DNA from: Actinomycetota bacterium
GTDB taxonomy: Bacteria; Actinomycetota; CADDZG01; JAHWKV01; JAOPZY01
Reading direction: 5' to 3'
Length of the DNA: 59,472 nt
Assembly: GCA_025963875.1 (NCBI GenBank)
Contig: JAOPZY010000023.1
Coordinates: forward strand, 1-59,472
Below, in pieces: positions 4,139 to 59,472 of the stretch (the first letter of the stretch is position 1; the number at the start of each line of letters is the position of its first letter). Below the pieces are notes generated by a model, which did not search any database, had not been told where the DNA came from, and worked only from the letters and a program-made list of their open reading frames with translations. The position numbers and the translations under genes are program-made.

Positions 4139-4140
4139 CG

Positions 4141-6629: not shown

Positions 6630-6749
6630 TCCGGGTCCGTTCGGGGCCCGACTTCCGGGCGTAGCCAACGCCGCGGCACAGGCAATCCACAGTTGCCGGT
6701 GCGATCCTGATCCCACAGGAACAACACCCAGCAGGAGGAATGACTCACG

Positions 6750-7133
6750 ATGGACGGACGCTTCATGGGACCGGGATGGCACGGCGGGTTCACGCTCTTC
6801 GGCAGTCTCTTCGGGATCATGCTCTTCGCAGTCTTCATCGGGCTGCTGGTGTGGGCACTGATGCGACTCCTGAGTCACGACCACCGCCTGCCGCACGCGT
6901 CGGTGCACGGCCCCTGGCAACCCCGGGACGACGCCCTCAGCGCCGCCCGCATGCGCTACGCCCGCGGCGAGCTGGACCGTGAGGAGTACTTCCGCGTCGT
7001 CGAGGACCTCACCGGCGTTCCACGGCCGGTCGAACCGCCCGCGCCAAGCGCCCCGTCCGGGACGGTTCCGCCCTACCCCGCCCCGCCCGCCCCGCCGGCC
7101 GCAGCCGAGCCGGGTACGCCACCCGAGGCATAG
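6750..7133 (+). CDS. SHOCT-domain membrane protein
   Basis: Gly-rich N-terminus, TM helix, ALSAARMRYARGELDREEY; RBS AGGAGG. Confidence 0.85.
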   Translation: MDGRFMGPGWHGGFTLFGSLFGIMLFAVFIGLLVWALMRLLSHDHRLPHASVHGPWQPRDDALSAARMRYARGELDREEYFRVVEDLTGVPRPVEPPAPSAPSGTVPPYPAPPAPPAAAEPGTPPEA

Positions 7134-7148
7134 GAGAACCGTTCGGCG

Positions 7149-8438
7149 ATGGGACCCACCGACCCCTACGGACAGCCCCCTGCTGTCGATCCTCCCGCCG
7201 GCACGCCCGCCGGCGAGGACGGGGCGCCGCCCCCCTTCCCGCCACCCCCGACGCCCTACGGGCCCCCGGCCGGTCCTCCCTACGGGGGTTACGGCCCCGG
7301 CCAGACCCCCTACTGGACGCCGCCGGAGGACCCGAAGCTTCCGAAGAAGTTCTCCCAGCGGCTGCTGCCGTGGTCAAAGGGTCTGCTGGCTGCGGCGGCG
7401 CTGATCGTGGCCGTGTTCGTTGTGGCCAACGCCCTCGGGGCGTTCAAGCACACCAACGGGGTGACGATCCCCACCGGTACCGACGCATCGCTGCGCACCG
7501 CCGCCACGACCCCGCCCAAGGGCACGGCGCCCTCGCTCGACGTGCGGTCGGTGCTGCGCTCGGTTGAGCCCGGCGTCGTCATGATCAGCACCTCGGCCTC
7601 GGGCACCTTCGGGGGCACCACCCAGGGGGAGGGCAGCGGCATGATCCTGGACACCCAGGGCAATGTCCTCACGAACGCCCACGTCGTCAACGGATCGACC
7701 ACCGTCAGCGTGCAGGTCTTCGGCCAGTCGACGGTCTACCAGGCCAAGGTGCTCGGCACCGACGCCGCCGACGACGTCGCCGTCATCCAGATCCAGAACC
7801 CCGGCACCCTGACCCCGGTCAAGATCGGCAAGTCCTCCGGCCTCCAGGTGGGCGACCCCGTGGTCGCCATCGGCAATGCGCTGGGACTGTCCCCCGGCGG
7901 CCCGTCGGTGACAACGGGGATCATCTCGGCGCTCAACCGCTCGCTCCAGACCAGCGGCGAGCGCCTGACGAGCCTGATCCAGACCGACGCCGCGATCAAC
8001 CCGGGCAACTCCGGCGGCCCGCTCGCCGACGCCAGCGGCCAGGTGATCGGCATGAACACGGCGGTCTCCAACAACGGGCAGGGCGTCGCCTTCGCCATCC
8101 CGATCGACCGCGTCGTCCCGTTGGTCGACTCTCTGAAGAAGGGATCCGTGACCACAACCGGGAGGGGCTTCCTCGGCGTGGCCATCACGGCGGCCCAGAA
8201 CGGCGGCGCCCAGATCACCGCCGTCACCCCGAACTCACCGGCAGCATCGGCGGGCCTCAAGCCCGGCGACGTCATCGTTGCCATCGACAACCAGCCGGTG
8301 GCGACCAACGCCGACGCCGCCGACACCATCGGCTCGCTGAGCCCCGGCACCAAGGTGACGATCAAGTACCAGCGAGGAAGCTCGACCAACACCGTGACCG
8401 TGACGCTGGCAACCACCCCCGCCAGCGCCACCGGCTAG
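7149..8438 (+). CDS. HtrA/DegP-family serine protease (TM, trypsin-like domain, PDZ)
   Basis: GSG, TNAHVV, DVAVI, TDAAINPGNSGG, C-terminal PDZ (GFLGV...SPAASAGLKPGDVI). Confidence 0.95.
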   Translation: MGPTDPYGQPPAVDPPAGTPAGEDGAPPPFPPPPTPYGPPAGPPYGGYGPGQTPYWTPPEDPKLPKKFSQRLLPWSKGLLAAAALIVAVFVVANALGAFKHTNGVTIPTGTDASLRTAATTPPKGTAPSLDVRSVLRSVEPGVVMISTSASGTFGGTTQGEGSGMILDTQGNVLTNAHVVNGSTTVSVQVFGQSTVYQAKVLGTDAADDVAVIQIQNPGTLTPVKIGKSSGLQVGDPVVAIGNALGLSPGGPSVTTGIISALNRSLQTSGERLTSLIQTDAAINPGNSGGPLADASGQVIGMNTAVSNNGQGVAFAIPIDRVVPLVDSLKKGSVTTTGRGFLGVAITAAQNGGAQITAVTPNSPAASAGLKPGDVIVAIDNQPVATNADAADTIGSLSPGTKVTIKYQRGSSTNTVTVTLATTPASATG

Positions 8439-8570
8439 GACCCCCGGGGACCGCTGGCCCGCCGCCCACGTGGCCATCGAGAACTGGAAGGATCGCCGGC
8501 GCATGGCGCCGCCCCGCCGGCGTCGGCGATCCTCCCCCGGGGCCTTGGACGAACCTGGCTGCTGTTGACA

Positions 8571-8623
8571 AGCTTCTTTGGGTGCTGAGCGATGAATATC
8601 ATCGTTATTCACTCAAAGAAGCT
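8571..8623. repeat. AT-rich palindromic REP-like element
   Basis: AGCTTCTTTGGGTG...CGATGA-ATA-TCATCG...CACTCAAAGAAGCT; outer stem, internal loop, inner stem. Confidence 0.8.
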
Positions 8624-8633
8624 GGTAGACAGG

Positions 8634-9533
8634 TTAGCTGAGCACCCGCCTCCGGAAGCCGACGATGCCCAGGCGCAGGAAGAGCGCCGCGAACCCAATG
8701 AGAACGGGATAGATCACGTAGAGGTGCATGTGCGGCGCCGTCGTGAGTGCCGCCCGGAACCCCTCGGTGATGTAGATCAACGGGTTGAGCGTCACGAGGG
8801 CCTGCAGCCAGGGGAACCCGCCGACCTGCACCGGGTGCAGCGTCGTCCAGGCGTAGTAGGTGCCCCCGAGGAACGTGATGGGCAGGATGATGAGCGCGAA
8901 GAGGGCGGGGACCTGCCGGGGGTCGAACCTCGTGCCAAAGGTGAGTCCGAGCGAGGCGGTGGTCACGCAGGCCAGCGGGATCATCGTGATCAGGATCAGC
9001 CAGTGGATCGTCAGGTGCGGCACGACGCCGGAGGCGTGCACGAAGGCCGCGATCGGGAACACGACGCAGGCAGCGAAGAGGCCCTGCAAGGCCCCGGCAA
9101 CGACCTTGCCGATGGCCACGAGGCTCACCGGCAGCGGTGCGAGCACCCGGTCCTCGATCTCTTTCGTATAACCGAACTCCTGCACCATCGGAAGAGCCAC
9201 CGACTGGATCCCCTGGAACAGGATCGAGAGTCCCACGACGCCCGCGACGAGGATCGTGGCGAAGGCCGACTCCCCACCTGCCCGGCCCCCGCCGACGCCC
9301 TGGCCGATCTTCGGAAACACGTAGAGGAAGACGAACACGAGCAGGAACGGCTGGATGATTGTGCGTGGGATGAACTCACGGAGGTTCTTCTTCAGCACGG
9401 CGAGGTCGCGGGACAGCAGGGCCGCGAAGGCGCTGCGGCTCGCCCGGGCGGCGGAGCGGCCGATCTGCGAGCCCAACGAACTCGCGGGTTGGGACTCGGT
9501 AGGCGCAGCGGGCGGAGCGGTAACGGTGGCCAT
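8634..9533 (-). CDS. ABC-2 permease
   Basis: EIEDRVLAP, TFLGGTYY, NPLIYITEGFR, multiple TM helices. Confidence 0.9.
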   Translation of the reverse strand: MATVTAPPAAPTESQPASSLGSQIGRSAARASRSAFAALLSRDLAVLKKNLREFIPRTIIQPFLLVFVFLYVFPKIGQGVGGGRAGGESAFATILVAGVVGLSILFQGIQSVALPMVQEFGYTKEIEDRVLAPLPVSLVAIGKVVAGALQGLFAACVVFPIAAFVHASGVVPHLTIHWLILITMIPLACVTTASLGLTFGTRFDPRQVPALFALIILPITFLGGTYYAWTTLHPVQVGGFPWLQALVTLNPLIYITEGFRAALTTAPHMHLYVIYPVLIGFAALFLRLGIVGFRRRVLS

Positions 9534-49667: not shown

Positions 49668-51215
49668 CTAGACCCGCACGCGGCGAGCGAGCCAGACGAC
49701 GCCGGCACCGCCCACCGCGGCGAGGAACAGCACGGAAGCGATCATCTGAACCGAGACGGTCGAGGACGCCGGCTTGCCCGCCGGCCCGCTGGCTGCCCTC
49801 GGGGTCGGGACCCCGGCAGCGGCGAGGGGTGACCCGTCGCCGGTCGATGTCGGCGAGGGAGTGGGGGGTGGCAGCGAGGGAGTCGGGGCCGGCGTCGACG
49901 AGAGCGCCGGGGCCGGCGTGCCGGCCTTCGGCGCGGCCAACTGGGCCGGCTTGGCGACGACCGCCGGGACCGGCCTCACCGCCGGCGCGGCGGGGGGCTG
50001 CGCGGCCACCGGGAGCGAGGCACCGGAGGCGCCGACGGCCGCCGCCGCGTTGAGGCGGGCGCCGGCGGCGACGTGGTCGGCAGAGGAGACGATCCTGCTC
50101 GCGGCGGCCGAGTTGCCGGCACCGGTGGCCATCACCAGCGCCGCCACACCGGCGACGTGCGGGACGGCGAAGGATGTCCCCTCGCTGACCTGGTAGCCGC
50201 CGTGCATCGAGGCGAGGACGACACAGTTGGACGTGTCGCCCGAGGAGCACGCGCCGTTGCCCCCGGGGGCCCAGACGAAGGTGGGGCCACTGCCGGTGTC
50301 CGAATAGGAGGCCACCTCGTCGTGCGGGCCGGTGGCCCCGACGATCAGCACGTTGTTCATGCCCAGGTAGAGGGAGGAGCCGGGCGTGGCCCCCGGATCG
50401 GTGTTGCCGGCCGCCACCACGACAAGGGCGCCGCGCGCCGAGGCGTAGTCGACGGCCGGCTGGAGGGCCTTGTGCAACGAGGACGGGTCATTGACCGGCG
50501 GCGTGAGGCATCCCCCCACGGTGGACGGCGGGCACTCGAGCGTCGGGAACGGACTGCCGAAGGCATCGGGGCCCACCGACAGGTTGACGACCTTCGCCCC
50601 CTGGTCGGCCGCGAACTTGATGCCTTTGGCGATGTCGTCCACCGAGCCCGTGCCGTCGCCGCCGATGGCCTTGATAGCCAGAATCCTTGCGTCGGGAGCC
50701 ACGCCGGCCATCCCCTGGCCATTGTTCGTGGCGGCGGCGATGATGCTGGCCACCCACGTCCCGTGGCCCTGATCGTCTCCGGACGCGTCGGCGGGGCAGG
50801 GGTCCGGCTTGCCGCCGTAGCCCCGGCAGTCGTAGGCGCCCGCCGACTTCGAGGCCGGCAGGTCGGCGATGCCGAACTGCACACCGGTGTCGACGACGGC
50901 AACCGTGATCCCGGCCCCCGTGCTGGTCGTCCACGCCTGGGGCGCCTTGATGACCTTCAACGCCCACTGGCTTGCGAAGTAGCTGTCGTTGGGCGGGTTG
51001 GGGATGACTGCGAAGGCGGGTGCGGCGAGCAGCCCCACTCCGACCGATGCGATCAGGGACCAACGTGCGGTTCTGGCCGGGCCCAGTCGGATACGGACCC
51101 GGATTCTGACTCCAATTCGCGCGCCAAGGTGCGTGCCGATTCGGGGGCGGACGCGCTGCTGCCGGCCCCCGGAGTTCCTGTCGAACGGTGCCCCGATACT
51201 GCCGCGCGCGCTCAA
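49668..51215 (-). CDS. Membrane-anchored S8 subtilase
   Basis: VAVVDTG, HGTWVASII, AAGN, GTSFAVPHVAG, Pro-rich linker and C-terminal TM; start uncertain. Confidence 0.9.
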   Translation of the reverse strand: MSARGSIGAPFDRNSGGRQQRVRPRIGTHLGARIGVRIRVRIRLGPARTARWSLIASVGVGLLAAPAFAVIPNPPNDSYFASQWALKVIKAPQAWTTSTGAGITVAVVDTGVQFGIADLPASKSAGAYDCRGYGGKPDPCPADASGDDQGHGTWVASIIAAATNNGQGMAGVAPDARILAIKAIGGDGTGSVDDIAKGIKFAADQGAKVVNLSVGPDAFGSPFPTLECPPSTVGGCLTPPVNDPSSLHKALQPAVDYASARGALVVVAAGNTDPGATPGSSLYLGMNNVLIVGATGPHDEVASYSDTGSGPTFVWAPGGNGACSSGDTSNCVVLASMHGGYQVSEGTSFAVPHVAGVAALVMATGAGNSAAASRIVSSADHVAAGARLNAAAAVGASGASLPVAAQPPAAPAVRPVPAVVAKPAQLAAPKAGTPAPALSSTPAPTPSLPPPTPSPTSTGDGSPLAAAGVPTPRAASGPAGKPASSTVSVQMIASVLFLAAVGGAGVVWLARRVRV

Positions 51216-51353: not shown

Positions 51354-52364
51354 CTACTTTGAGGAGGACGAGACGAAGAGGTCTTTGACCTCGTTGAAGG
51401 AGGCTACGCATTTCCCAGCGCCGAGCACGACGCATTCGAGGGGCCGCGACGCCACGTGCACCGGCACGTCGCACTCCTGCGCCAGGCGGGCCTCGAGGCC
51501 CCGGAGCAGCCCGCCGCCGCCGGTGAGCGCGATGCCGTGGGAGAGGATGTCCTGCGCAAGCTCGGGTGGGGTCGCCGACAGGGCGGCGACCACGGCGTCG
51601 ACGATCTGCCGTACCGGGTCCTCGATCGCCTCCCGGATCTCCTCGGACGTGATGTGGACGATCTTGGGCAGGCCCGCGGCGAGGTCCCGGCCCTTGATCT
51701 CGGCCTTCTCCTCCTCCGCCAGTGGGAACGCCGAGCCGATCGCGATCTTGATCTGCTCGGCGGTGCGCTCCCCGACGACGATGGCGTACTCCTTGCGGAT
51801 GTGGCGGGCGACCGCCTCATCGATGTCAAACCCGCCGATCCGGATCCCCTTGTTCACGACCACACCGCCCATGGACAGCACGGCGACCTCCGACGTGCCA
51901 CCGCCGATGTCGACGACCAGGTTGCCGATCGGCTCACTGATGGGCAGCCCCGCCCCGATAGCGGCAGCGACCGGCTCCTCGATGAGGTAGGCCTCCCGGG
52001 CACCGGCGGCCATGGTGGCCTCCTGCACCGCTCGGCGTTCCACCTCGGTGATGGCCGACGGCACGCAGATGAGCACGCGAGGCCGGGGCACCCGCTTGCG
52101 GACGCCCACCCGCTCCAGGATGAGGCGGATGTAGCGCTCGGTGACCTCGAAGTCGGTGATGGCGCCCCGGCGCAGCGGCCGCTCGGCCACGATGTAGCCA
52201 GGAGTCCGGCCGATCATCCGGTAGGCCTCCTGGCCCATGGCCAGCACCTGTCCGTTCTCGCGGTTGAGGGCGATGACCGTCGGCTCGTTCAGGACGATCC
52301 CTCGCCCGGTGACGAAGACGAGGGTGTTGGCCGTGCCGAGGTCGATGGCGAGATCCCTGCCCAT
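51354..52364 (-). CDS. mreB: Rod shape-determining actin homologue MreB/Mbl (stand-alone)
   Basis: DLAIDLGTANT, IEEPVAAAIGAG, VDIGGGTSE, GERTAE.IK, LTGGGGLL. Confidence 0.95.
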   Translation of the reverse strand: MGRDLAIDLGTANTLVFVTGRGIVLNEPTVIALNRENGQVLAMGQEAYRMIGRTPGYIVAERPLRRGAITDFEVTERYIRLILERVGVRKRVPRPRVLICVPSAITEVERRAVQEATMAAGAREAYLIEEPVAAAIGAGLPISEPIGNLVVDIGGGTSEVAVLSMGGVVVNKGIRIGGFDIDEAVARHIRKEYAIVVGERTAEQIKIAIGSAFPLAEEEKAEIKGRDLAAGLPKIVHITSEEIREAIEDPVRQIVDAVVAALSATPPELAQDILSHGIALTGGGGLLRGLEARLAQECDVPVHVASRPLECVVLGAGKCVASFNEVKDLFVSSSSK

Positions 52365-52627
52365 CAGCGTTCGCTTTCCTCGGCGAGAGTTGTGGGACCA
52401 GCAGCGGGCGCAGCGAACACGAGGTAGAGCACCGACCCGTGTTCCTTTCTTGAAGTACGGCTCTGGAATTACGGCAGTTACGGCCCCCGAATTCGGCGTC
52501 GAGCTTCGATGTCCCAGCTTCCGGGACACTGCGTCGTGCACCGAAGCCAGGAGTATATCGGTTTGGGCAGTTGGCCCGTCCGGGAGTTTGTCCAGTCGTC
52601 GCCCACTCCTCCGGAGTGTCCGACGAC

Positions 52628-52690
52628 CCAGGGGGGATTCGCAGCTCATCCGGCTCCGCTGCGCTCCGCCGGGCTGCTACTCCCCCCTGG
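52628..52690. repeat. GC-rich REP-like stem-loop (different family)
   Basis: CCAGGGGGGA...GCAGC..CCGGC-TCCGCTGCGCTCC-GCCGG-GCTGC...TCCCCCCTGG. Confidence 0.75.
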
Positions 52691-52699: not shown

Positions 52700-53602
52700 C
52701 TAGGCGCAAGCAGGGGTCTCCTGGCTCGGCACCCAGCCGGCGAAGCTGGCCGCGGGTGGAGGCAGGAGGCGATCCTTCTCGACCACCAGGTACAGCGAGC
52801 GGGTCAGCGTCAGGCCGGCAATCCGCACCGCCACCGGCCCTTCCGGCCCCCGGCCCCGAAGGGCCAGACAGGAAACGAACCCGATGCCGTAGCCATTGCC
52901 GGCCGCGGAGACGATCGCGGCGGTATTCGAGAGCACCATGACCGAGCGGTAGGGGGGCACCTCCAGGCCGTGTTCGGCCAGCAGGGCCAGGAAGCTGAGG
53001 TGGGTGCCCGATCCGCTCTCCCGGGTGAGAAATGGCTGTCCCGCCAGTTCGGAGAGCTCGACGGACGTCCGGGAGGCGAACGGGTGCAGCGGGGGGACCG
53101 CGAGCACGATCTCGTCGGTGGCGATGGGGCGGTGCACGAGGTCCCGACCCGGGAGCTTGACGCCGGAGAACCCGACGTCGGCGTTCCTCGATCGGAGCTG
53201 GGCGACCACTTCGGTCGAATCGGCGATCTGGATCCGCGGTGAGACCCGTGGGTGGCTCGTGGTGAACGCGCTCACCAGGCCCGGGACCAGGAACTCACCC
53301 GGCGTCGTGCTGGCGACGATGCGCAGCTCGCCGGCGAGACGGCTCGGCTGCTCAGCGAGGTCGGCCAGGAGCCGAACGTGGCCCCCGACGACCTCTTCGG
53401 CGTAGGACCGCACCCGTTCCCCTGCCGGCGAGAGCTCGACGCGTCCACGGCGGCGGGTGAGGAGTGTGACGCCCAACTCCCGTTCCAGTTTCTGGATGTG
53501 ACGGCTCACCGCAGGCTGGCTGAGGTGGAGCTCGGCGGCGGCACGGGTGAAGCTGCCGCAGCGGGCGAGGAGCAGGAAGGTTTGGAGCTGGTCAAGGTTC
53601 AA
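52700..53602 (-). CDS. LysR family regulator (CysL-like / selenium-metabolism-associated type)
   Basis: SFTRAA.ELHLSQPAVS..I..LE, ASTTPGEFLVP, RESGSGT. Confidence 0.9.
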   Translation of the reverse strand: MNLDQLQTFLLLARCGSFTRAAAELHLSQPAVSRHIQKLERELGVTLLTRRRGRVELSPAGERVRSYAEEVVGGHVRLLADLAEQPSRLAGELRIVASTTPGEFLVPGLVSAFTTSHPRVSPRIQIADSTEVVAQLRSRNADVGFSGVKLPGRDLVHRPIATDEIVLAVPPLHPFASRTSVELSELAGQPFLTRESGSGTHLSFLALLAEHGLEVPPYRSVMVLSNTAAIVSAAGNGYGIGFVSCLALRGRGPEGPVAVRIAGLTLTRSLYLVVEKDRLLPPPAASFAGWVPSQETPACA

Positions 53603-53615
53603 GGTCGTCTCGTTC

Positions 53616-53679
53616 TATAGCAGATCCATCTATAACAATTCGGTATCCCGCCTACTTAGGTATTGCATTCAGGTATGCT
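53616..53679. promoter_or_regulatory. LysR-binding divergent promoter region
   Basis: AT-rich; TATAG-N9-CTATA palindrome, T-N11-A boxes ATAACAATTCGGTAT (53632) and ATTGCATTCAGGTAT (53662), TATGCT -10. Confidence 0.55.
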
Positions 53680-53724
53680 CCGCGGCTTGGACGTTGTTCG
53701 CTAAGAGGGGGCCAAGGGACGCAA

Positions 53725-54993
53725 TTGGGCGATTTTGACCTGGTCGGGATCACACCCGCCGCAACCGTGCAAGCCACAGGAATGGATACGGGCCCCGTCC
53801 TGCTGATGATCAGGAACGCGGTGGCCGGGATCGGCGAGGGCGACGTCCTCGAGGTGACCGGGGGCGACGACGGGCTTGCCGACGACATCGGCGGCTGGTG
53901 CCGCCTCAACGGCTGCGAGGTCGTCGCCAGTCTCGACGGCGGGGTCGACCGGACCTGGCTGCTGCGGAAAGGACCCACCGCCCCGGCCTGGGAGCAACCG
54001 GATTGGGGGATATCGCTGCCCCGCCGCGACGGCCGGCGCATCGACCTGCGGGACTGGTTCGAAGGCCGCGCCGGCGACGTACCCGACGTGGCGCCCACCT
54101 ACTACGGCTTCGTCCCGAGGGGCGCGGTGGCCGAGCCGGGCATGCCTGCGTACCCCTTCACGCTCAACACTAAGGCCGACGTCTGGGCGGACAACATCGC
54201 CGGCCTCTACGAGCAGGCGAAATCCCAGCAGTGGAACGCCTCGGAGGACATCCCGTGGGATCGCCTCGAGCCACTCCCCGAGCCCGTGGAGCGGGCGGTG
54301 TGCCAGATCATGACGTTCCTGGCGGAGAACGAGTACGCCGCCCTCTACATCCCCGCCAAGTTCCTGCCCCGCATCAACGCCCGCTTCGTCGAGCCGGTGC
54401 TGTTCCTCGCCACGATCATCAACGACGAGGCCCGGCATATCGAGGTCTTCACCAAGCGGGCACTCGCCAACGGCGGCGGCCTCCAGTATTCGGCGGCGAT
54501 GACCGAATGGTCGCTGCAGAGCCTCCTGCTCCAGGAGGACTACTTCAAGTCGAGCTTCCTGCTCCACGTGCTGGGCGAGGGGACGTTCCTCGACCTCCTG
54601 GCCTTCATCGAGCACCACGCCCCCGACCCGGTGACCGCCGAGATCGTCCGGCGTGCCCGCCTCGACGAGGGCCGCCACGTCGCCTACGGGATCGCCCATG
54701 TCCGCCAGCAGCTGCGCCACGACCCCACCCGGGTCGAGGAGCTGGTGGCCTCCGCCGAGGAGCGTTCGGCCGTGCTGCAGGCGACGACGGGCGTGAACCC
54801 CCCCGTGCTCGAGGCCCTGACGATCCTCGGCGGCGGCGGATCGTCGCCCGAGCAGCGCCGCCGGGGTGGCGGGGCGGTCCGGGACCTCCACCGCTCGATG
54901 GACGATTACCGCATCCGCCGCATGCTGCAGGTCGGCCTCGACCTCCCCACCGCCCAGAAGATCTCGCAGCTCCACACTCCGAACTTCATGTAA
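53725..54993 (+). CDS. TusA/SirA-like domain fused to a ferritin-like diiron carboxylate domain
   Basis: G.VLEV..DD.L..DI..WC...G (TusA fold); ENEY, DEARH, GEG, DEGRH ligand set. Confidence 0.8.
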   Translation: MGDFDLVGITPAATVQATGMDTGPVLLMIRNAVAGIGEGDVLEVTGGDDGLADDIGGWCRLNGCEVVASLDGGVDRTWLLRKGPTAPAWEQPDWGISLPRRDGRRIDLRDWFEGRAGDVPDVAPTYYGFVPRGAVAEPGMPAYPFTLNTKADVWADNIAGLYEQAKSQQWNASEDIPWDRLEPLPEPVERAVCQIMTFLAENEYAALYIPAKFLPRINARFVEPVLFLATIINDEARHIEVFTKRALANGGGLQYSAAMTEWSLQSLLLQEDYFKSSFLLHVLGEGTFLDLLAFIEHHAPDPVTAEIVRRARLDEGRHVAYGIAHVRQQLRHDPTRVEELVASAEERSAVLQATTGVNPPVLEALTILGGGGSSPEQRRRGGGAVRDLHRSMDDYRIRRMLQVGLDLPTAQKISQLHTPNFM

Positions 54994-55065
54994 CCCAACC
55001 TTCATTGCAGCAGTGCTGCCGGTCGGCAGAGCCCAGTCCCCGCATACTTGAAAGGAGAACCACCA

Positions 55066-56205
55066 GTGCCACTCACCGACGACGCACGCAAGGCCATCGC
55101 CGACCAGGCGTGGGCAGTCGCAGAGAAGATGAAGCCGAGCGCTGCCTCCCTCGACGCCAACCGCACCTACCCGGACGACCACCTCGACGCGCTGGCCGGG
55201 GCGGGCCTGATGGGCCTGCTCGTCTCGCGGGAGCACGGCGGCCTGGGTGGCGACCTCACCAGCCTGGCCCTCGTGTGCGAGGCGGTCGGGTGGGCGAACG
55301 GCTCCACCGGGCTTGTCTACCTCATGCACCTGTGCGGGACGGCCACGATCGGGGCGAAGGCAACCCCCGAGCAGGCCCAGGAGTGGCTCGTCCCCGCAGC
55401 CACCGGCGACACGCTGGCGACCCTCGCCTTCAGCGAACGCGCCAGCGGTGCCCACTTCTACATGCCGGAGATCAAGGCCGAGAAGTCCAACGGCGGCTAC
55501 GTCCTCAACGGCAGGAAGAGCTTCGTCACCAGCGGCGGCTACGCCGACCTGTACCCGGTGCTCGTCAACGCCTCGGGCGGCGAGGGGCTCGACGTGCTTG
55601 TCGTCCACGGTGCCGACAAGGGCGCATCCTTCACCGGCGCCTGGGAGGGCATCGGCATGACCGGCAACTCCTCCATCGAGATGGGGCTCGACGGCGTCGA
55701 ACTCCCCGCCGACCGGCTCGTGGGGGCCGAGGGCGACGGCCAGGAGCTGGTCTTCAACGTCGTTGCCCCCACGTTCCTGATTGGCCTCGCCGCCGTCAAC
55801 GTCGGCATCGCCCAGGCCGCGCTCGACGACACGATCGAGCACGTCAAGACCCGCCGCAACGCCGGCGGGATCCTCGCCGAGCTGCCGACGGTCCAGACCG
55901 AGATCGCCGAGATGACCATCGCCGTCGAAGAGGCCCGCGCGCTGGTCATCACGGCGGCCAGGGCCGCCGACGCCGGCGACCCCGCCGCCCTGCCGCTCGT
56001 GATGCAGTCGAAGATCGGCGCCACCGAGGCCGCCATCGATGTCACGGGCAGGGCCATGGAGGCCTGCGGAGGCCTGGCCTACTCGAAGCGCCTCGACATC
56101 GAGCGCTACTGGCGGGACGGCCGGGCCGGCTCGGTCATGGCCCCCACGAACGAGGTCCTGAAGCAGTGGGTCGGCAAGCTGCAAACCGGCCTGCCGCTGT
56201 TCTAG
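55066..56205 (+). CDS. Acyl-CoA dehydrogenase-fold flavoprotein (possible DszC/SfnB-like monooxygenase)
   Basis: GTG after AAAGGAG; LAFSE, LNGRKSFVT, W.GIGM.GN.S, GGLAY, IERYWRD; VMAPT at the usual IYEGT position. Confidence 0.88.
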   Translation: MPLTDDARKAIADQAWAVAEKMKPSAASLDANRTYPDDHLDALAGAGLMGLLVSREHGGLGGDLTSLALVCEAVGWANGSTGLVYLMHLCGTATIGAKATPEQAQEWLVPAATGDTLATLAFSERASGAHFYMPEIKAEKSNGGYVLNGRKSFVTSGGYADLYPVLVNASGGEGLDVLVVHGADKGASFTGAWEGIGMTGNSSIEMGLDGVELPADRLVGAEGDGQELVFNVVAPTFLIGLAAVNVGIAQAALDDTIEHVKTRRNAGGILAELPTVQTEIAEMTIAVEEARALVITAARAADAGDPAALPLVMQSKIGATEAAIDVTGRAMEACGGLAYSKRLDIERYWRDGRAGSVMAPTNEVLKQWVGKLQTGLPLF

Positions 56206-56212
56206 TGCCCCG

Positions 56213-57016
56213 ATGACAACTGACCGCCTCCTCGTCATCGGCGCCGTCGCGTACGACCCGAAGGTCGTGCCGATCTGGGAGTCCATGCGCGACTACTTCC
56301 GGGATGCCGGAGTGCCGATCGACTACGTGCTCTTCTCCAACTACGAAGCGCAGGTCGATGCCCTCTTCGCCCGGAGCATCGACCTGGCCTGGAACACCAA
56401 CGTGGCGTACGTGAAGTCCGAGCAGCGCTCCGGCGGGATGTGCCAGGTGCTCGGCATGCGCAACACCGACGTGGGATTCACCACCCGCATCGTCGGCCGG
56501 GGAGAGCGTCTGGGTGGGCTCGGTGAGCTGAAGGGCAAGCGGCTCGCCCTCGGCAGCGCCGACTCCGCCCAGGCGGCCATCCTCCCGCTGCAGTGGCTGC
56601 GGCAGGCTGGCCTCGAGCCCGGCGGGGACGTCGAGCTGCTCCGTTTCGACCTCGACGTCGGCAAGCACGGCGACACGGGCACGAGCGAGCTCGAGGTCCT
56701 GCGAGCCCTCCACGAGGGTTACGCCGACTACGGCGCCGTCGGGGACCCCACCTGGATCCGCGAGCTCGAGGCGGGCCACGTCAACAGCTCGCTGGTGAAG
56801 TCGCTGTGGACCTCGCCGCCATACTGCCATTGCAACTTCACGGCGCTGCCGGACTTCGACCCCGCGTGGGCAGCCCGCTGGAGCAACGCCTTGCTGGCGA
56901 TGAGCTACAACGATCCCAAGTGGCGCCGCCTGATGGACCTGGAGGGCCTGACCGCCTGGGTGCCGGGCCGCAAGGCGGGCTACGAGGAACTGACCTTCGC
57001 GCTGAGCCTGACGTGA
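56213..57016 (+). CDS. PhnD/SsuA-fold (PBP2) protein without signal peptide
   Basis: GAVAYDPKVV.IW, YEAQVDAL....IDLAWN, LKGKRLALGSADS.QA, YCHCNF. Confidence 0.85.
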   Translation: MTTDRLLVIGAVAYDPKVVPIWESMRDYFRDAGVPIDYVLFSNYEAQVDALFARSIDLAWNTNVAYVKSEQRSGGMCQVLGMRNTDVGFTTRIVGRGERLGGLGELKGKRLALGSADSAQAAILPLQWLRQAGLEPGGDVELLRFDLDVGKHGDTGTSELEVLRALHEGYADYGAVGDPTWIRELEAGHVNSSLVKSLWTSPPYCHCNFTALPDFDPAWAARWSNALLAMSYNDPKWRRLMDLEGLTAWVPGRKAGYEELTFALSLT

Positions 57017-57048
57017 TCCCGCCCCGGCCCGCTCGGGCCGGGGCGGGA
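57017..57048. terminator. Perfect GC hairpin between convergent genes
   Basis: TCCCGCCCCGGCCC-GCTC-GGGCCGGGGCGGGA. Confidence 0.75.
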
Positions 57049-57062: not shown

Positions 57063-58118
57063 TCAGAAGCGCTTCACGAGGGTGGCGACCGTCACGTGCG
57101 GCCAGCTCAGCCCGAGGAAGTTCAGCAGGACCGTCTGCGTGTACTGCAACTGCAGGAAGCTGCCGTTTCCGTGCTTGACCGTCTCGATCCAGAACGTCGC
57201 GGTCATCTGCGCCGCGTCGGCGTTGGCGATCAGGAACGGGATGTTCTCGACGCCGCCGCCGCCGTTGTTGATCTTGTGGACGGTGGGCGGGTTCGTGCCC
57301 TCGGTGAAGCTTGCCACCGTCCCGATGTTGAGGACGACGGTCTCCGTGATGGTCTGGCCCGCGATGGCCGCCGCAAGGGCGACATTGGGGTTGGTCACCA
57401 TCGCCTGCGTGATCCCGGCCGGCACCGGGTTGGTGCGGAACGGGTTCGGTGGCCCGAGGTTGTACTCGGGGAAGCCGTTGGGTGTGTTCTGTGGCGGCAC
57501 ATTGCCACCGACGGGGAACGGCACCGTGTTCGCGAAGGCGAACTTCGGCACGGTCACCGTGAAGGCTGTCCCCTCCGCAGCGAGGGCGTTGCCGTGTGGG
57601 ATTGTCGCCAGGCGCGTGACGCTCGCGGTCTCCACCGGGTCGGTCGTCGACGGCACGTTGATCCAGATGCCCGGCTCCAGGTGGAGCGCACCGCCGTCGG
57701 TGGCGTCGCTGATCTGCTGCAGGTAGTGGAGGCCGAACAGGTCGATGTCGTTCTGGCCGCTCCCGCGGTTGGGGATGGACGAGCCGATCGTTCGGAAGTC
57801 GAGCTCCTCGTTGGTCAGGTTGAGCTCCAGGAAGATGTCGTTGTGGCCCTCGAAGTCCGGTCGGGCGATGAGGTTGAACCCCCTGCCGGCCCAACGGCCG
57901 TTGAGCTTGGCGAGCAGGCCGAGGTTGGCGATCACCGTATCGGGCGGCGGCGCTGCCCGGAACGACGGGATCCGCTAGAGGATCGGGGTGACCACGTCGG
58001 GCACAGGCGTCGGGGCCGTTTGGACGGCCCCCGTCACAGCACCCGTGACGTCGGTGACCACGTTGCCCACAGCGGCGCCGACCGCCCCGAGGGCCGACGA
58101 GATTGGATTGTCAGGCAT
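57063..58118 (-). pseudogene. Putative heme-binding (FMP-peroxidase-like) protein gene interrupted by an in-frame TAG
   Basis: ATG 58118 after AAAGGA; TAG at codon 48 (57975-57977); same frame continues with W.G.GFN.I.RP, IPNRG, LH.EPG.W, IPHG, LQY.Q.V.L.F....WPHV.VATL. Confidence 0.65.
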
Positions 58119-58420: not shown

Positions 58421-59472
58421 ATGGACATCGACCCCGTGGAGATCGGGATGGCGCTCTCATCCATCCCGCTCTTCCGCGAGCTGCAACGGCTCCTCATGTC
58501 GCAGAGCAGCCCGGTCAATTGGGAGATCGCCGGGCAGATCTCCACCGCCGTCGCTCAGATGCGAGGGTCGGGCGACCGGCCCGGTCCCGGGGAGCAGGCG
58601 GAGTTCGAGGAAGACTGCCGGCTCGCCGAGATGCGGGTTGGCCAGCTCACCGGCCTCGAGTCCCCCGGGTCGATCACCAAGGTGGAGGTCGTCGACCGGG
58701 TCGAGTGGGCCCAGGCCAACCTCGAGGCCATCCGCCCCTTCATGGAGCGCCTCTCGGCCGGACTTGGGGGAGCACTCAGCGGGGGCCTCGGCAACCTGGG
58801 AGGCCCCGGCGGCTTCGGGGCCACGAGCGGTTCGGAGGAGGAGGCAGCCGCCGTGCCGATGAGCGCCGCCCTCGGCATGCTCGGGCCGCTCATCTTCGGG
58901 CTCGAGGTCGGCTTCCTGATGGGCTTCCTGTCCCGACGGGTGCTGGGGCAGTACGACCTCTGCCTTCCCCGCGGCGACGGCAACCGTCTCTGGTTCGTCT
59001 ACCCCAACATCGCCGAAGCCCAGGCCAGCCTCGGGCTCGACGCCCGGCAGTTCCGCATGTGGCTGGCACTCCACGAGGTCACCCACCGGTTGGAGTTCGC
59101 TTCGATCCCGTGGGTGCGCAGCCACTTCACCGGGCTCGTCGAGCGCTTCATCGACGCTGCCGAGATCGACTCCGGCGAGGCGATGAGCCGGCTGCAGTCC
59201 CTCGGCGATCCCGAGCAGCTGAGCCATCTCATGTCGCATCCCGAGGAGCTGCTCCCGATGTTGATCACCCCGCCGCAGCAGGAGTTGGCCCGGCAGATCG
59301 AGACGCTGATGGCGTTGCTCGAGGGCTACACCGAGTGGGTCATGGAGCAGATCGGCTCGGAGCTGTTGCCGGAGTTCTCGAAGATCCGGGAGGGGCTCAG
59401 CCGCCGGAAGGCGGAGCGGTCGTCGGTCGAACGGCTGCTGGAGGGCCTCCTCGGCATCGACCTCAAGCCCGC
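58421..59472 (+). CDS. DUF2342/Zincin_2 zinc-dependent metalloprotease (3' end runs off the window)
   Basis: PVNWEIA, R.EW..AN, LS.RVLGQYD, W.ALHEVTH, M.LLEGY; TAAGCT 6 nt before the ATG. Confidence 0.92.
   Translation, partial: MDIDPVEIGMALSSIPLFRELQRLLMSQSSPVNWEIAGQISTAVAQMRGSGDRPGPGEQAEFEEDCRLAEMRVGQLTGLESPGSITKVEVVDRVEWAQANLEAIRPFMERLSAGLGGALSGGLGNLGGPGGFGATSGSEEEAAAVPMSAALGMLGPLIFGLEVGFLMGFLSRRVLGQYDLCLPRGDGNRLWFVYPNIAEAQASLGLDARQFRMWLALHEVTHRLEFASIPWVRSHFTGLVERFIDAAEIDSGEAMSRLQSLGDPEQLSHLMSHPEELLPMLITPPQQELARQIETLMALLEGYTEWVMEQIGSELLPEFSKIREGLSRRKAERSSVERLLEGLLGIDLKP

What the first reader, a model, noticed from the sequence alone, without database searches (positions are those of the whole stretch)
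52700..57016. Candidate new sulfur/selenium pathway: LysR, TusA-diiron fusion, ACAD-fold flavoprotein and cytoplasmic PBP-fold protein
Seen: a divergent CysL-like LysR with T-N11-A boxes and a three-gene operon closed by a strong hairpin, with no ABC permease or ATPase. The flavoprotein has VMAPT where many acyl-CoA dehydrogenases have the catalytic IYEGT. Known: the Dsz pathway pairs an ACAD-fold FMNH2 monooxygenase (DszC) with a PBP2-fold cysteine desulfinase (DszB), TusA domains carry sulfur, and CysL/CysB regulate sulfur assimilation. Inference: an uncharacterised organosulfur or selenium oxidation/desulfurisation module, or a small-molecule biosynthetic cassette. Routine annotation would label it phosphonate transport plus fatty-acid oxidation. 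The substrate is unknown.
Basis: partly seen in the sequence, partly recalled or inferred. Interest (0 to 1): 0.8.

Follow-up and report, generated by a model that had tools for sequence, protein, structure and literature searches.

The report
Selenium-linked three-protein oxidase module
A regulator and three neighbouring genes form a widely conserved enzyme set of unknown function that was found only in bacteria able to use selenium, so it may be an undescribed part of selenium metabolism.

Summary
A LysR gene (52700-53602, -) lies divergent from three co-directional genes closed by a -39.9 kcal/mol hairpin. The genes encode a TusA-like/R2lox-like dimetal fusion, an ACAD-fold flavoprotein with VMAPT in place of the catalytic-Glu motif, and a signal-less PhnD-like protein.

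The three genes are adjacent in 63 of 80 genome loci from about ten phyla, and no fourth gene is conserved. A sister operon (NCBIfam Rv1679/Rv1680/Rv1681 families) replaces the dimetal protein with a radical SAM enzyme carrying the same Cys-loop-less TusA-like domain. A complex model places that domain on the PhnD-like protein (score 0.69, best control 0.00).

The Dsz analogy and a TusA sulfur-carrier role are not supported: TusA's Cys aligns with Thr22, and the DszC, SfnB and PhnD models are missed by wide margins.

The selenium alternative gained support:
- All 63 module-bearing genomes tested have SelD (background 69-89%).
- The adjacent LysR is the genome's best match to the selenium-associated LysR family; one homologous locus passes its cut-off.
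- In four lineages the module lies next to selenocysteine-machinery genes (selD, selC, selA or selB; the full set in one).

The substrate is unknown. No paper found describes the module.

The parts
52700..53602 (-). LysR-family regulator. It is the best match in the genome to the selenium-metabolism-associated LysR family (LysR_Se / NF040786).
   Evidence: Pfam HTH_1 plus LysR_substrate. NF040786 scores 237.8 bits against a cut-off of 250. It is the best hit in the own genome (234.7 bits; the next is 182.7 on another contig). LysR genes beside the module in other lineages also have NF040786 as their best family: 230.0-238.6 bits in four, and 253.2 bits (above the cut-off) in L175.
53603..53724 (.). 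Divergent control region. It holds ATAG-N9-CTAT (53617-53633), the conserved ATAAC-N5-GGTAT (53632-53646, a T-N11-A box) and GGTAT repeats. A purine-rich AAGAGGGGG stretch precedes the TTG start.
   Evidence: Sequence read. The palindrome is unique in the genome. Alignment with L001, L002 and L007.
53725..54993 (+). Fusion protein of 422 aa: a TusA-like domain (about residues 10-83, without the CPxP cysteine), a conserved linker (about 87-153) and an R2lox-like dimetal-carboxylate domain (about 154-422). The ligand set is E203, E235, H238, E285, E315 and H318. F242 occupies the radical-Tyr position. The C-terminus HTPNFM is invariant.
   Evidence: At least 1704 homologues were found. The predicted interface with the PhnD-like protein uses residues 21-30, 50-63, 85-88, 126 and 138-141.
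55048..56205 (+). ACAD-fold flavoprotein of 385 aa lacking the catalytic glutamate (VMAPT in place of YEGT). The C-terminal GLPLF is conserved.
   Evidence: The nearest family is Rv1679/FadE16 (NF049984) at 297.8 bits against a cut-off of 600.
56213..57016 (+). Cytoplasmic PhnD-clade binding-protein fold of 267 aa with a remodelled, invariant pocket: Y14, S42-N43-Y44, W60-N61-T62, R83, D86, S115, D117, S118, the loop D148-x-G-K-H-G-D-T-G-x-S-E159, and H206-C207.
   Evidence: The nearest family is the Rv1680 SBP-like family (NF049985) at 319 bits against a cut-off of 400.
57018..57047 (.). Perfect 13-bp G+C stem with a GCTC loop, lying between the convergent stop codons of the operon and of the FMP-type heme-binding gene.
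   Evidence: Sequence read. Fold of -39.9 kcal/mol with z = -5.4. It has no U-tract and was not called by the terminator scan.

Best explanation
The locus encodes a self-contained, selenium-linked three-protein redox system under a LysR_Se-type regulator.

Shown or modelled:
- The cytoplasmic PhnD-like protein is the common hub. It is always next to the ACAD-fold gene in the 63 complete loci.
- It is modelled to dock, through residues 84-92, 178-197 and 232-248, on the TusA-like domain of the dimetal protein.
- That domain has lost TusA's persulfide cysteine and appears to serve as an adaptor. The same domain heads a radical SAM enzyme in the sister Rv1679-81-type operon.

Inferred:
- The hub protein holds a small polar ligand in a remodelled pocket with an invariant His-Cys pair.
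- The R2lox-like Fe/Fe or Mn/Fe centre uses O2 for an oxidative step on it. The radical SAM enzyme would do the O2-independent equivalent in the sister system.
- The base-less ACAD-fold flavoprotein performs a non-canonical flavin step rather than alpha,beta-dehydrogenation of an acyl-CoA.
- The most likely physiological role is conversion of a selenium compound, either salvage or release of Se for the SelD pathway or its buffering.

The identity of the ligand and the chemistry are not shown.
For: Module:
- The three genes are adjacent and co-directional in 63 of 80 genome loci (24 in the window's order, 39 as ACAD-PBP-fusion). Ten more loci are cut by contig ends.
- No other gene family is conserved.

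Sister system:
- In G243, an ACAD (637.6 bits, cut-off 600), an SBP-like protein (493.1, cut-off 400) and a radical SAM protein (537.6, cut-off 380) form one operon.
- The radical SAM N-terminus matches the fusion family's N-terminal profile (E 3.5e-5, one-sequence search) and Pfam TusA positions 14-70 (E 0.032).
- The same 'WC' stretch is seen in P0129.
- The pocket residues are invariant when the Rv1680-type member is included. VMAPT is shared.

Docking:
- ipSAE is 0.69 (runs 0.69, 0.75, 0.69); the best of 3 controls is 0.00.
- This mark was reached by 58 of 80 solved complexes and 2 of 110 mismatched pairs. These counts hold only roughly here because my own alignments were used.
- The runs agree in at least 81% of contacts, and the partner's pLDDT is at least 89.
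- The interface includes the invariant W58 and R60 and the former Cys loop.

Dimetal site: all six ligands are invariant. The fold is closest to R2lox.

Selenium link:
- SelD is above its cut-off in 63 of 63 distinct module-bearing genomes: 10; 15; 2 more; 34 new; 2.
- Backgrounds are 213/301, 94/136, 134/151 and 51/61.
- LysR_Se-type regulators lie beside the module in at least three divergent lineages.
- In G210 the genes selD, tRNA-Sec, selA, selB, ACAD, PBP and fusion are collinear on one strand.
- SelD and SelB lie 2.7 kb from the module in L151. SelB and tRNA-Sec lie 2.3 kb from it in L206. SelB is divergent from it in L028 and L165.
- The PBP's second-best family is the putative selenate SBP TIGR04553 (101.3 bits).
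Against: - The SelD background is high in every clade sampled (69-89%), and related genomes are not independent. The 63 of 63 is therefore weaker than it looks.
- Only 4 of 160 loci (3 lineages) plus G210 have Sec-machinery genes in the fetched flanks. None of L001-L080 has SelD within 8 kb.
- The window's LysR scores below the NF040786 cut-off.
- No member has Sec (in-frame TGA) at a conserved Cys.
- G243, which carries the true Rv1679-81 operon, is not among the SelD-positive genomes. The shared pocket therefore cannot be strictly selenium-specific.
- The pocket is rich in Asp and Glu and has lost the STSG anion loop of PhnD (SAQA). This does not suit a simple oxyanion.
- The complex score is a model's confidence, not a measurement.
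- The fusion's monomer model is only moderately confident (pLDDT 65.4).
- No expression, ligand or activity data exist.
Confidence: 0.4

Rival explanations
1. The operon is selenium-responsive but does no selenium chemistry. It would belong to the LysR_Se regulon, for example as a selenium-independent backup or a stress function switched by Se status, and its substrate would contain no selenium.
For: According to passages of PMC5322559, the archaeal LysR_Se orthologue HrsM represses Se-free isoenzymes when Se is available. This would explain the regulator adjacency and the restriction to SelD-positive genomes without Se in the substrate. It also fits the SelD-less G243 sister operon. GrdB-type selenoprotein genes lie beside the module or the sel cluster in L127 and L151, and tblastn matches to the L127 reductase component B lie in L040 and L091.
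Against: The co-directional arrangement directly downstream of selD, selC, selA and selB in G210 (109-bp gap between selB and the ACAD gene) suggests co-expression with the Sec machinery rather than opposite regulation. Most loci have no LysR nearby (3 of 80 above 150 bits).
Confidence: 0.2
2. The module builds a selenium-containing small molecule or cofactor from SelD's selenophosphate. The PhnD-like protein would bind selenophosphate, and the dimetal or radical SAM enzyme would form a C-Se bond on a substrate handled by the flavoprotein.
For: Strict co-occurrence with SelD in 63 of 63 genomes. The hub has a phosph(on)ate-binder fold with an invariant His-Cys pair. A paralogous cluster has a GT2, a DUF2064/CofC-like nucleotidyltransferase and an epimerase next to the ACAD-SBP pair and a related radical SAM (L101). 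There is an apparently intact SBP-DUF2064 fusion, P0130.
Against: No gene for a carbon skeleton, and no methyl-, glycosyl- or aminotransferase, is conserved with the core module. The sister operon occurs in a genome where no SelD was found (G243). The anion loop of PhnD is lost.
Confidence: 0.15
3. One reading: a Dsz-like organosulfur oxidation and desulfurisation module with a TusA sulfur carrier, regulated by a CysL/CysB-type LysR.
For: The folds are shared: DszC is ACAD-fold and DszB is PBP-fold (recalled). SfnB and 3-sulfinopropanoyl-CoA desulfinase models give weak hits (135.9 and 143.4 bits). The PBP-fold protein has an invariant Cys-His pair. CysNC lies 6 kb from the fusion gene in one locus (L031).
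Against: The TusA persulfide Cys aligns with Thr22 and the column is not conserved. C59 of the invariant WCR is not among the modelled contact residues, while W58 and R60 are. DszC scores 73 bits against a cut-off of 850, SfnB 135.9 against 430.9 and the CysB family 80.6 against 402. No DszB chain is in the listing, which runs to rank 50. No sulfur-assimilation gene is conserved nearby.
Confidence: 0.08
4. The PhnD-like protein is itself the substrate. The dimetal (or radical SAM) enzyme, recruited through its TusA-like domain, and the flavoprotein would install a protein-derived cofactor or crosslink in its invariant loop or His-Cys site.
For: The docking domain is shared by two different radical- or oxidant-generating enzymes. 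The hub has an extremely conserved 12-residue loop and an HC pair (56 of 56). R2lox is known to modify its own scaffold, and ACAD-fold enzymes act on carrier-bound substrates (both recalled). The prolyl-PCP dehydrogenase models hit at 123.4 and 108.7 bits.
Against: The modelled interface does not include the loop 148-159 or H206-C207. There is no precedent for an SBP-fold protein as a cofactor scaffold. This reading does not explain the selenium link.
Confidence: 0.07
5. The routine annotation: a phosphonate ABC-transport binding protein plus a fatty-acyl-CoA dehydrogenase, adjacent by chance to a TusA sulfurtransferase.
For: Pfam names these domains. PMC8562490 assigns Rv1680 as a phosphonate transporter component by structure.
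Against: The binding protein has no signal peptide. No permease or ATPase is conserved. PhnD scores 29.4 bits against a cut-off of 261. The catalytic Glu is missing family-wide. The trio is conserved across about ten phyla.
Confidence: 0.02

Closest known systems
Rv1679 (FadE16) / Rv1680 / Rv1681 (MoeX) families of NCBIfam (NF049984, NF049985, NF049973). These are name-only families; no function was found in the papers searched.
   Same: The same ACAD-fold clade, with VMAPT and a C-terminal GLPLF. The same SBP-like clade with an identical invariant pocket. The same gene order (ACAD, SBP, third gene). The third protein begins with the same Cys-loop-less TusA-like domain.
   Different: Here the third enzyme is an R2lox-like dimetal oxidase, not a radical SAM protein. 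The window's proteins score below both family cut-offs (297.8 against 600 and 319 against 400). The one genome with the true trio (G243) is not among the SelD-positive genomes.
R2-like ligand-binding oxidases (R2lox; PDB 4hr0, 6f6c)
   Same: A ferritin-like fold with E, ExxH, E, ExxH ligands and Phe at the radical-Tyr position. R2lox is the best PDB match by sequence and by fold.
   Different: Sequence identity is only 18-20%. NF006200 scores 36.8 bits against a cut-off of 194. The window's protein has an added TusA-like domain, a conserved linker and an invariant C-terminal HTPNFM, and it keeps obligate gene partners.
TusA / YedF-type sulfur (selenium) carrier domains
   Same: The fold (TM 0.87, rmsd 1.6 A to 3lvj_C). 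The second Cys of E. coli TusA aligns with C59. The face that carries the active Cys in TusA is the modelled interface here.
   Different: The persulfide Cys of the CPxP motif is Thr22 here and is variable in the family. The Pfam score of 22.1 is below the gathering score of 28.6.
PhnD/PtxB/HtxB/AioX/ArrX oxyanion-binding proteins and TIGR04553 (putative selenate SBP)
   Same: The fold (Foldseek E 8e-25 to 7s6g, TM 0.74). The SNY and R..D motifs are shared.
   Different: No signal peptide and no transporter genes. The anion loop STSG is SAQA. YvDYhW is YCHCNF, with invariant H206 and C207. There is a new invariant DxGKHGDTGxSE loop. PhnD scores 29.4 bits against 261 and TIGR04553 scores 101.3 against 250.
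Dsz desulfurisation enzymes (DszC, DszB) and SfnB/MsuC-type ACAD-fold monooxygenases
   Same: An ACAD-fold protein without the catalytic Glu is paired with a PBP-fold protein carrying a Cys. This is a fold-level analogy, recalled from the literature.
   Different: DszC scores 73 bits against a cut-off of 850 and SfnB 135.9 against 430.9. True butyryl-CoA dehydrogenases are much closer (2e-49 against 1e-20 for DszC). No DszB chain is in the listing, which runs to rank 50. No flavin reductase gene is present.
LysR_Se / HrsM (NF040786; Lin et al. 2015, PMC5322559, passages read)
   Same: It is the best family for the window's LysR and for every module-adjacent LysR tested (5 further proteins). 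That family is reported only from SelD-containing organisms.
   Different: The window's protein scores 237.8 bits, just under the cut-off of 250. Only the L175 protein passes (253.2). Regulation of this operon by selenium is untested.

Membership tests
TusA sulfurtransferase (PF01206) | Persulfide-carrying Cys of the CPxP motif at the start of helix 1 | tested here: not met
   E. coli TusA 'lrCpep' aligns with 'mdTgpv' (Thr22). The column varies across the family alignment.
TusA sulfurtransferase (PF01206) | Score above the Pfam gathering threshold, and the TusA fold | tested here: inconclusive
   The score is 22.1 bits against 28.6. The fold superposes with TM 0.87 and rmsd 1.6 A on 3lvj_C.
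R2-like ligand-binding oxidase | Six carboxylate and His metal ligands on four helices | tested here: met
   E203, E235, H238, E285, E315 and H318 are invariant in 17 of 17 rows. They align to the DEAKH and DEGRH motifs of 4hr0 and 6f6c.
R2-like ligand-binding oxidase | Curated family score (NF006200, cut-off 194) | tested here: not met
   36.8 bits.
Acyl-CoA dehydrogenase | Three-domain ACAD fold (Pfam N, M and C domains) | tested here: met
   67.1, 49.7 and 91.3 bits, all above their cut-offs.
Acyl-CoA dehydrogenase | Catalytic glutamate (YEGT position, or the alternative helix-G position) | tested here: not met
   The E of 'iyEgt' aligns with A365. MAPT is at least 95% conserved in 49 members, and no conserved acidic residue lies in 240-260. 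The helix-G position is judged from recalled knowledge of IVD and LCAD.
DszC / SfnB flavin monooxygenases | Curated family scores (NF043015 cut-off 850; TIGR04022 cut-off 430.9) | tested here: not met
   73 and 135.9 bits. PDB DszC scores E 1e-19 to 6e-21, against 2e-49 for butyryl-CoA dehydrogenase.
DszB desulfinase | Sequence or fold closer to DszB than to transport SBPs | tested here: not met
   No DszB family appears in the NCBIfam hits. The Foldseek listing, which runs to rank 50, holds PhnD, PtxB, HtxB, ArrX, AioX, XAC2383, GpxB, a sterol transporter, SsuA and TauA entries.
PhnD phosphonate ABC-transporter binding protein | Secreted or lipid-anchored, encoded with a permease and an ATPase, and a curated score (TIGR03431, cut-off 261.1) | tested here: not met
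   29.4 bits. Strand 1 begins at residue 7. No transporter genes are conserved.
Rv1679 and Rv1680 families (NF049984, NF049985) | Curated scores of 600 and 400 | tested here: not met
   297.8 and 319 bits. These are nevertheless the best families by a wide margin, and the invariant residues are shared.
Selenium-metabolism-associated LysR (NF040786) | Curated score of 250 | tested here: not met
   237.8 bits and 234.7 bits in the genome search, where it is the best of the genome. The homologous regulator in L175 scores 253.2.
Selenium-metabolism-associated LysR (NF040786) | Found only in SelD-containing organisms, near Sec genes (as stated in PMC5322559) | tested here: met
   The own genome has SelD at 386.3 bits with an in-frame TGA. 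In this genome the regulator is not next to SelD, which lies on contig C179.
CysB/CysL sulfur regulators | Curated scores (CysB family 402; CysB 436; Cbl 491) | tested here: not met
   80.6, 65.5 and 68.1 bits.

The most novel reading that the evidence does not exclude
This would be a previously unrecognised selenium-utilisation trait. A three-protein machine is gated by a LysR_Se regulator. In it, a cytoplasmic descendant of phosphonate- and selenate-binding proteins captures a selenium species on its His-Cys site. It hands that species, through a TusA-derived docking domain, to an R2-like dimetal oxidase or, in the O2-independent sister system, to a radical SAM enzyme. The result would be a C-Se (or C-S) bond made or broken. 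The uncharacterised Rv1679-Rv1681 operon of mycobacteria would be its chalcogen-handling paralogue.
Probability: 0.3. Interest if true: 0.9.

Novelty: categorically new. Interest (0 to 1): 0.75.

Why it matters
How bacteria acquire, deliver and buffer selenium for SelD is still largely unknown; candidates such as YedE, YedF, DUF3343 and LysR_Se come from comparative genomics only (PMC5322559). This module gives a new, testable candidate. It is compact and widespread: at least 1704 homologues of the fusion and about ten phyla. It was never found without SelD in 63 genomes and lies next to the Sec machinery in several lineages.

It also shows three things of wider interest. A TusA fold has been re-used as a protein-docking adaptor shared by a dimetal oxidase and a radical SAM enzyme. 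A periplasmic binding-protein fold has been turned into a cytoplasmic hub. And an ACAD clade has lost its catalytic base. Finally, it gives a first functional lead for the conserved Rv1679-Rv1681 genes, which are currently annotated as fatty-acid oxidation, phosphonate transport and molybdopterin synthesis.

Tried and rejected
- Sec-containing variants: I scanned all loci held at that point for in-frame TGA inside homologues of the three genes. The only hit was at query residue 2 of an ACAD, which is an upstream read-through. None was at a conserved Cys.
- SelD within 8 kb of the 80 genome loci: none.
- A shared operator: ATAG-N9-CTAT occurs nowhere else in the genome, so there is no link to the SelD locus. 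Its left half is not conserved in relatives.
- Rosetta-stone fusions: 15 longer proteins matched at E <= 1e-20. P0123, P0124 and P0129 carry Arg/Pro/Gly-rich junk at the junction and lack the normal ends of the upstream domain. I read them as frameshift read-throughs in high-GC DNA, not as fusions. Only P0130, a divergent SBP paralogue joined to DUF2064, looks intact.
- The tblastn 'SelB' hit in L031 is CysNC (975.2 bits) and was dropped.
- An amino-acid permease directly upstream of the module in L206 recurs only in L065 (29% identity, about 3.6 kb from the module, opposite strand) and as a weak 92-residue match in the sister locus L098. It is not conserved next to the module.
- BLASTP of the fusion against the Rv1681-type radical SAM found nothing significant (E 0.28). 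The relationship of the N-termini appears only with a profile and is weak.
- The ESM Atlas returned only unnamed or ferritin-like clusters.
- Earlier findings of this scan: three look-ups, nothing returned.
- Literature: no functional study of Rv1679-81 or of this trio. Searching 'moeX' returned unrelated papers.
- The monomer model of the fusion is only moderately confident (pLDDT 65.4; residues 87-163 below 50), so no pocket analysis was attempted on it.

Full report
1. WHAT IS THERE

The region holds four genes:
- a LysR gene, 52700-53602 on the minus strand;
- a 422-aa fusion, 53725-54993 (+, TTG start);
- a 385-aa ACAD-fold protein, 55048-56205 (+);
- a 267-aa PhnD-like protein, 56213-57016 (+).

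The three plus-strand genes are separated by 54 and 7 bases. They are divergent from the LysR gene across a 122-bp spacer.

Two bases after the last stop codon lies a perfect 13-bp G+C stem (57018-57047). It folds at -39.9 kcal/mol with z = -5.4, and none of 200 shuffles folds as well. It has no U-tract, and the simple terminator scan did not call it. It sits between convergent genes.

The spacer holds two candidate boxes:
- ATAG-N9-CTAT (53617-33) is unique in the 3.84-Mb genome, but the reversed control pattern occurs only three times, so the uniqueness carries little weight.
- ATAAC-N5-GGTAT (53632-46) is a T-N11-A box and is the part conserved in the two closest loci.

The flanking genes are a subtilase, MreB, an FMP-type heme-binding protein and a zincin-like peptidase. 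No ABC permease or ATPase is present.

2. THE THREE PROTEINS

2a. The fusion protein

- N-terminal domain. Residues 10-83 align with E. coli TusA (E 1.7e-5) and superpose on it (TM 0.87, rmsd 1.6 A). However, the persulfide cysteine of TusA's CPxP motif aligns with Thr22. That column is variable in a 17-row family alignment.
- The invariant residues in this domain are instead W58-C59-R60.
- Dimetal domain. Residues about 154-422 form a ferritin-like dimetal domain. The best PDB relatives are R2-like ligand-binding oxidases (E 2.4e-6; Foldseek 3e-5). The azoxy synthase VlmB and aldehyde-deformylating oxygenases follow.
- All six metal ligands are invariant: E203, E235, H238, E285, E315 and H318. 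Phe242 occupies the position that I recall as the radical tyrosine in class Ia R2. The last six residues, HTPNFM, are nearly invariant (five invariant; P419 at 90% or more).
- The curated R2lox model is missed by a wide margin (36.8 against 194).

2b. The flavoprotein

- It has all three ACAD domains and is much closer to genuine butyryl-CoA dehydrogenases (2e-49) than to DszC (about 1e-20).
- The catalytic Glu of YEGT aligns with Ala365.
- MAPT is at least 95% conserved in 49 family members. No conserved acidic residue appears in the helix-G region.

2c. The PhnD-like protein

- Its model is very confident (pLDDT 95.0) and starts strand 1 at residue 7, so it has no signal peptide.
- Its structural neighbours are all P/As oxyanion binders: PhnD, PtxB, HtxB, ArrX and AioX. 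No DszB chain appears in the listing, which runs to rank 50.
- Its pocket is remodelled. PhnD's STSG loop is SAQA, and YvDYhW is YCHCNF.
- Fifty-six of 56 family members keep Y14, D15, S42-N43-Y44, W60-N61-T62, R83, D86, S115, D117, S118, the loop D148-x-G-K-H-G-D-T-G-x-S-E159, and H206-C207.

3. IT IS A CONSERVED MODULE

- The fusion has at least 1704 homologues, 55-93% identical among the best 120.
- A scan of one genome per species returned 80 loci. By their record titles they come from Actinomycetota, Chloroflexota, Armatimonadota, Bacillota, Sericytochromatia, Planctomycetota, Acidobacteriota, Myxococcota, Helicobacteraceae, Brachyspira and a Patescibacteria-group MAG.
- All three genes are adjacent on one strand in 63 of the 80 loci. 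Twenty-four have the window's order and 39 have the order ACAD, PBP, fusion.
- Ten further loci are cut by a contig end.
- Six loci with room on both sides lack both partners (L010-L013, L023, L029). One (L066) keeps only the PBP.
- Clustering all ORFs of the 80 loci found no fourth conserved family; the next cluster is present in 7 loci.

4. A SISTER SYSTEM WITH A RADICAL SAM ENZYME

- The best NCBIfam families for the flavoprotein and the PhnD-like protein are 'Rv1679 family acyl-CoA dehydrogenase' (297.8 against 600) and 'Rv1680 family SBP-like protein' (319 against 400).
- In the window's phylum, only one of 301 sampled genomes passes the Rv1680 cut-off: G243, unnamed, 5.1 Mb.
- In G243 the operon is ACAD (637.6), SBP-like (493.1) and 'Rv1681 family radical SAM protein' (537.6). 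All three are above their cut-offs.
- The radical SAM protein begins with about 60 residues that match the N-terminal profile of the fusion family in register, including the W-C pair (E 3.5e-5 in a one-sequence search, 10 bits). They also match Pfam TusA positions 14-70 (E 0.032).
- A second example (P0129, titled Arthrobacter sp. A5) shows the same 'AAWCARTGNELL' stretch. These similarities are weak but consistent.
- The SBP pocket residues stay invariant when the G243 protein is added. Its ACAD also reads VMAPT and ends in GLPLF.
- So two different oxidant- or radical-generating enzymes carry the same adaptor-like domain and share the same two partners.
- Both systems can occur in one genome (G183, G210, G148).

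5. DOCKING MODEL

I used the single complex job on the fusion (17-row alignment) and the PhnD-like protein (55-row alignment).

- The verdict was 'supports binding'. ipSAE was 0.69 (runs 0.69, 0.75, 0.69), and the best of three controls was 0.00.
- This mark was reached by 58 of 80 solved complexes and 2 of 110 mismatched pairs. These counts hold only roughly here because my own alignments were used.
- The runs agree in at least 81% of contacts, and the partner's pLDDT is at least 89.
- On the fusion, the interface is residues 21-24, 26-27, 30, 50, 53-54, 57-58, 60-63, 85-88, 126 and 138-141. This is the TusA-like domain, including W58, R60 and the former Cys loop.
- On the partner, the interface is residues 84-92, 178-197, 200 and 232-248.
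- C59 is not among the named contacts.
- I know of no solved TusA-SBP complex (recalled, not searched), so a pass from memory seems unlikely.
- This is a model's confidence, not a measurement.

6. SULFUR OR SELENIUM?

6a. The sulfur arguments fail on test

- There is no TusA cysteine.
- The DszC, SfnB and CysB/Cbl models are missed by wide margins, and there is no DszB-like signal.

6b. Four lines of evidence point to selenium

(i) The regulator
- The window's LysR has the 'selenium metabolism-associated LysR' family as its best hit (237.8 against 250). It is the best such hit in its genome.
- LysR genes beside the module in more distant loci also have this family as best hit: L007 230.0, L161 230.1, L162 237.4, L136 238.6 and L175 253.2. 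The last is above the cut-off and shares 34% identity with the window's LysR.
- Passages of Lin et al. 2015 (PMC5322559) describe this subfamily as found only in SelD-containing organisms and as a likely selenium sensor.

(ii) Co-occurrence with SelD
- SelD was above its cut-off in 63 of 63 distinct module-bearing genomes.
- These are 10 of 10 full-length carriers in the phylum sample, 15 of 15 reached by handle, 2 more in the family of L018's genome, 35 of 35 further handles of which one duplicates G148, and 2 in the phylum of L060's genome.
- The backgrounds are high: 213/301, 94/136, 134/151 and 51/61. Relatives are not independent.
- This is therefore a real but moderate signal.

(iii) Neighbourhood
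- In G210 the minus strand reads selD, tRNA-Sec, a 166-aa ORF with no Pfam match, selA, selB, ACAD, PBP, fusion. The gap between selB and the ACAD gene is 109 bp.
- In L151, SelD (331.5 bits) and a truncated SelB lie 2.7 kb downstream of the module.
- In L206, SelB (352.5 bits) and tRNA-Sec lie 2.3 kb upstream.
- In L028 (SelB 370.3 bits) and L165, SelB is divergent from the fusion gene.
- That makes 4 of 160 scanned loci, plus G210.
- A rough expectation is 0.6 loci. This assumes about 2.5 sel loci per 5-Mb genome and 1.1 Mb of flanks. The Poisson P is about 0.003 for four or more and 0.02 for three or more.

(iv) The second-best family of the PhnD-like protein is the putative selenate-binding SBP TIGR04553 (101.3 against 250).

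6c. Evidence against the selenium link

- No SelD lies within 8 kb in L001-L080.
- No Sec-containing variants were found.
- G243, with the true Rv1679-81 trio, is absent from the SelD-positive list.

7. MOST LIKELY MECHANISM

Shown:
- the conserved trio;
- the loss of the ACAD catalytic base and of the TusA cysteine;
- an intact dimetal site;
- a remodelled cytoplasmic binding-protein pocket;
- an adaptor domain shared with a radical SAM sister.

Modelled:
- the adaptor docks on the binding-protein fold.

Inferred:
- the binding-protein fold presents a small polar ligand on its His-Cys site;
- the dimetal centre performs an O2-dependent oxidative step, and the radical SAM enzyme performs its O2-independent counterpart;
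- the flavoprotein performs a non-canonical flavin reaction;
- the system serves selenium metabolism, most plausibly salvage, release or buffering of Se for SelD.

I put 0.4 on this reading. Within it, the generic statement of a conserved trio that is functionally linked to selenium utilisation is more likely, at about 0.6. The rivals are:
- a Se-regulated but Se-free function (0.2);
- biosynthesis of a Se metabolite from selenophosphate (0.15);
- Dsz-like organosulfur chemistry (0.08);
- maturation of a protein-derived cofactor on the binding-protein fold (0.07);
- the routine annotation (0.02).

As an analogy recalled from the literature, phosphonate C-P cleavage also exists in a diiron-oxygenase form (PhnZ) and a radical-SAM-type form (PhnJ), alongside a PhnD binder. 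No membership in that system is implied.

8. NOVELTY

- Six full-text searches found no functional study of this trio or of Rv1679-Rv1681.
- Rv1680 appears as a 'putative phosphonate transporter component' assigned by structure (PMC8562490, passage). Rv1679 appears as a hypoxia-proteome hit (PMC5017210, passages).
- A 2022 review of prokaryotic selenium genomics (PMC9312934) holds none of the words acyl-CoA, TusA, ferritin, phosphonate, diiron or substrate-binding. The 2015 study (PMC5322559) holds neither acyl-CoA nor ferritin; its SirA and periplasmic mentions concern YedF and the general LysR fold.
- Supplementary tables were closed and might list the regulators.
- The components belong to known superfamilies. 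The system architecture fails every membership test I could apply to a known system, so I rate it categorically new, with an unknown substrate.

Genomes flagged as unpublished (G148/G723, G001, G018, G048, G082, G088, G120, G226, G239, G268, G621, G646) enter mainly as single counts in the tallies. G148 also supplies locus L003 and its rows in the locus and alignment analyses.

Noticed in passing
window 57063-57935 (-): A convergent neighbour encodes an FMP-type heme-binding protein (NF040572, 262.1 bits against a cut-off of 150). It was not found next to the module in L001-L080 by tblastn, so it is probably unrelated.
   Followed up: partly
window 51354-52649 (-), 49668-51215 (-), 58421-59470 (+): MreB: the Pfam match starts at residue 98 of the longest ORF, so the true start is probably internal. 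The other two ORFs are an S8 subtilase with a Pro/Ala-rich C-terminal tail and a Zincin_2 metallopeptidase that runs off the window.
   Followed up: partly
L101 (G183:C1:1548000-1563000), minus strand about 1772-8940: A paralogous cluster reads ACAD, SBP-like, GT2, DUF2064 (TIGR04282-like, 119.8 bits against 134), a gap with no Pfam match, NAD-dependent epimerase/dehydratase, CMD/AhpD-like and an Rv1681-related radical SAM. It looks like a sugar-nucleotide-linked variant of the sister system. G074 has the same spacing between the SBP-like gene and the radical SAM gene.
   Followed up: partly
P0130 (513 aa): An apparently intact fusion of a divergent SBP-like paralogue (it keeps the H-C pair; the loop reads GGLHGDHVGGE) with a DUF2064/CofC-like nucleotidyltransferase.
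   Followed up: no
L010, L011, L013 (record titles: Armatimonadota, Armatimonadota, uncultured bacterium): These are stand-alone copies of the fusion gene without ACAD or PBP neighbours.
   Followed up: partly
G251:C2:6364-7296 and G264:C12:196413-197354: Relatives of the dimetal domain that start at profile position 97-99, so they have the linker and ferritin domain but no TusA-like domain. They were not matched by the SBP-like family search. G264 is not in the SelD-positive list.
   Followed up: no
G419:C1:3923133-3924394: The fusion gene is matched in two overlapping pieces (profile positions 8-260 and 254-428). This is probably a frameshifted copy or a sequencing error.
   Followed up: no
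L127 9896-12267 (+), L151 5523-5984 (+), L040 232-1371, L091 3623-3778: Glycine/sarcosine/betaine reductase genes lie beside the module or the adjoining sel cluster. L127 has component B and GrdB-type selenoprotein B (Pfam), and L151 has a GrdB-type fragment (Pfam). L040 and L091 were matched only by tblastn with the L127 component B.
   Followed up: partly
G000:C179:4504-5433 (-) (L118): The own genome's SelD has one in-frame TGA at the position of the active-site Cys/Sec (GAG*ACK). The organism therefore decodes selenocysteine.
   Followed up: partly
L206 2612-3913 (+): An APC-family amino-acid permease ends 12 bases before the ACAD ORF of the module, on the same strand. It recurs only in L065 (about 3.6 kb from the module, opposite strand) and as a weak partial match in L098, so it is not conserved next to the module. 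It could hint at an amino-acid-like substrate in that lineage.
   Followed up: partly
L031 7255-9174 (-): A bifunctional CysN/CysC (sulfate adenylyltransferase and APS kinase, 975.2 bits) lies 6 kb from a fusion gene at a contig end. It was first mistaken for SelB by tblastn.
   Followed up: yes
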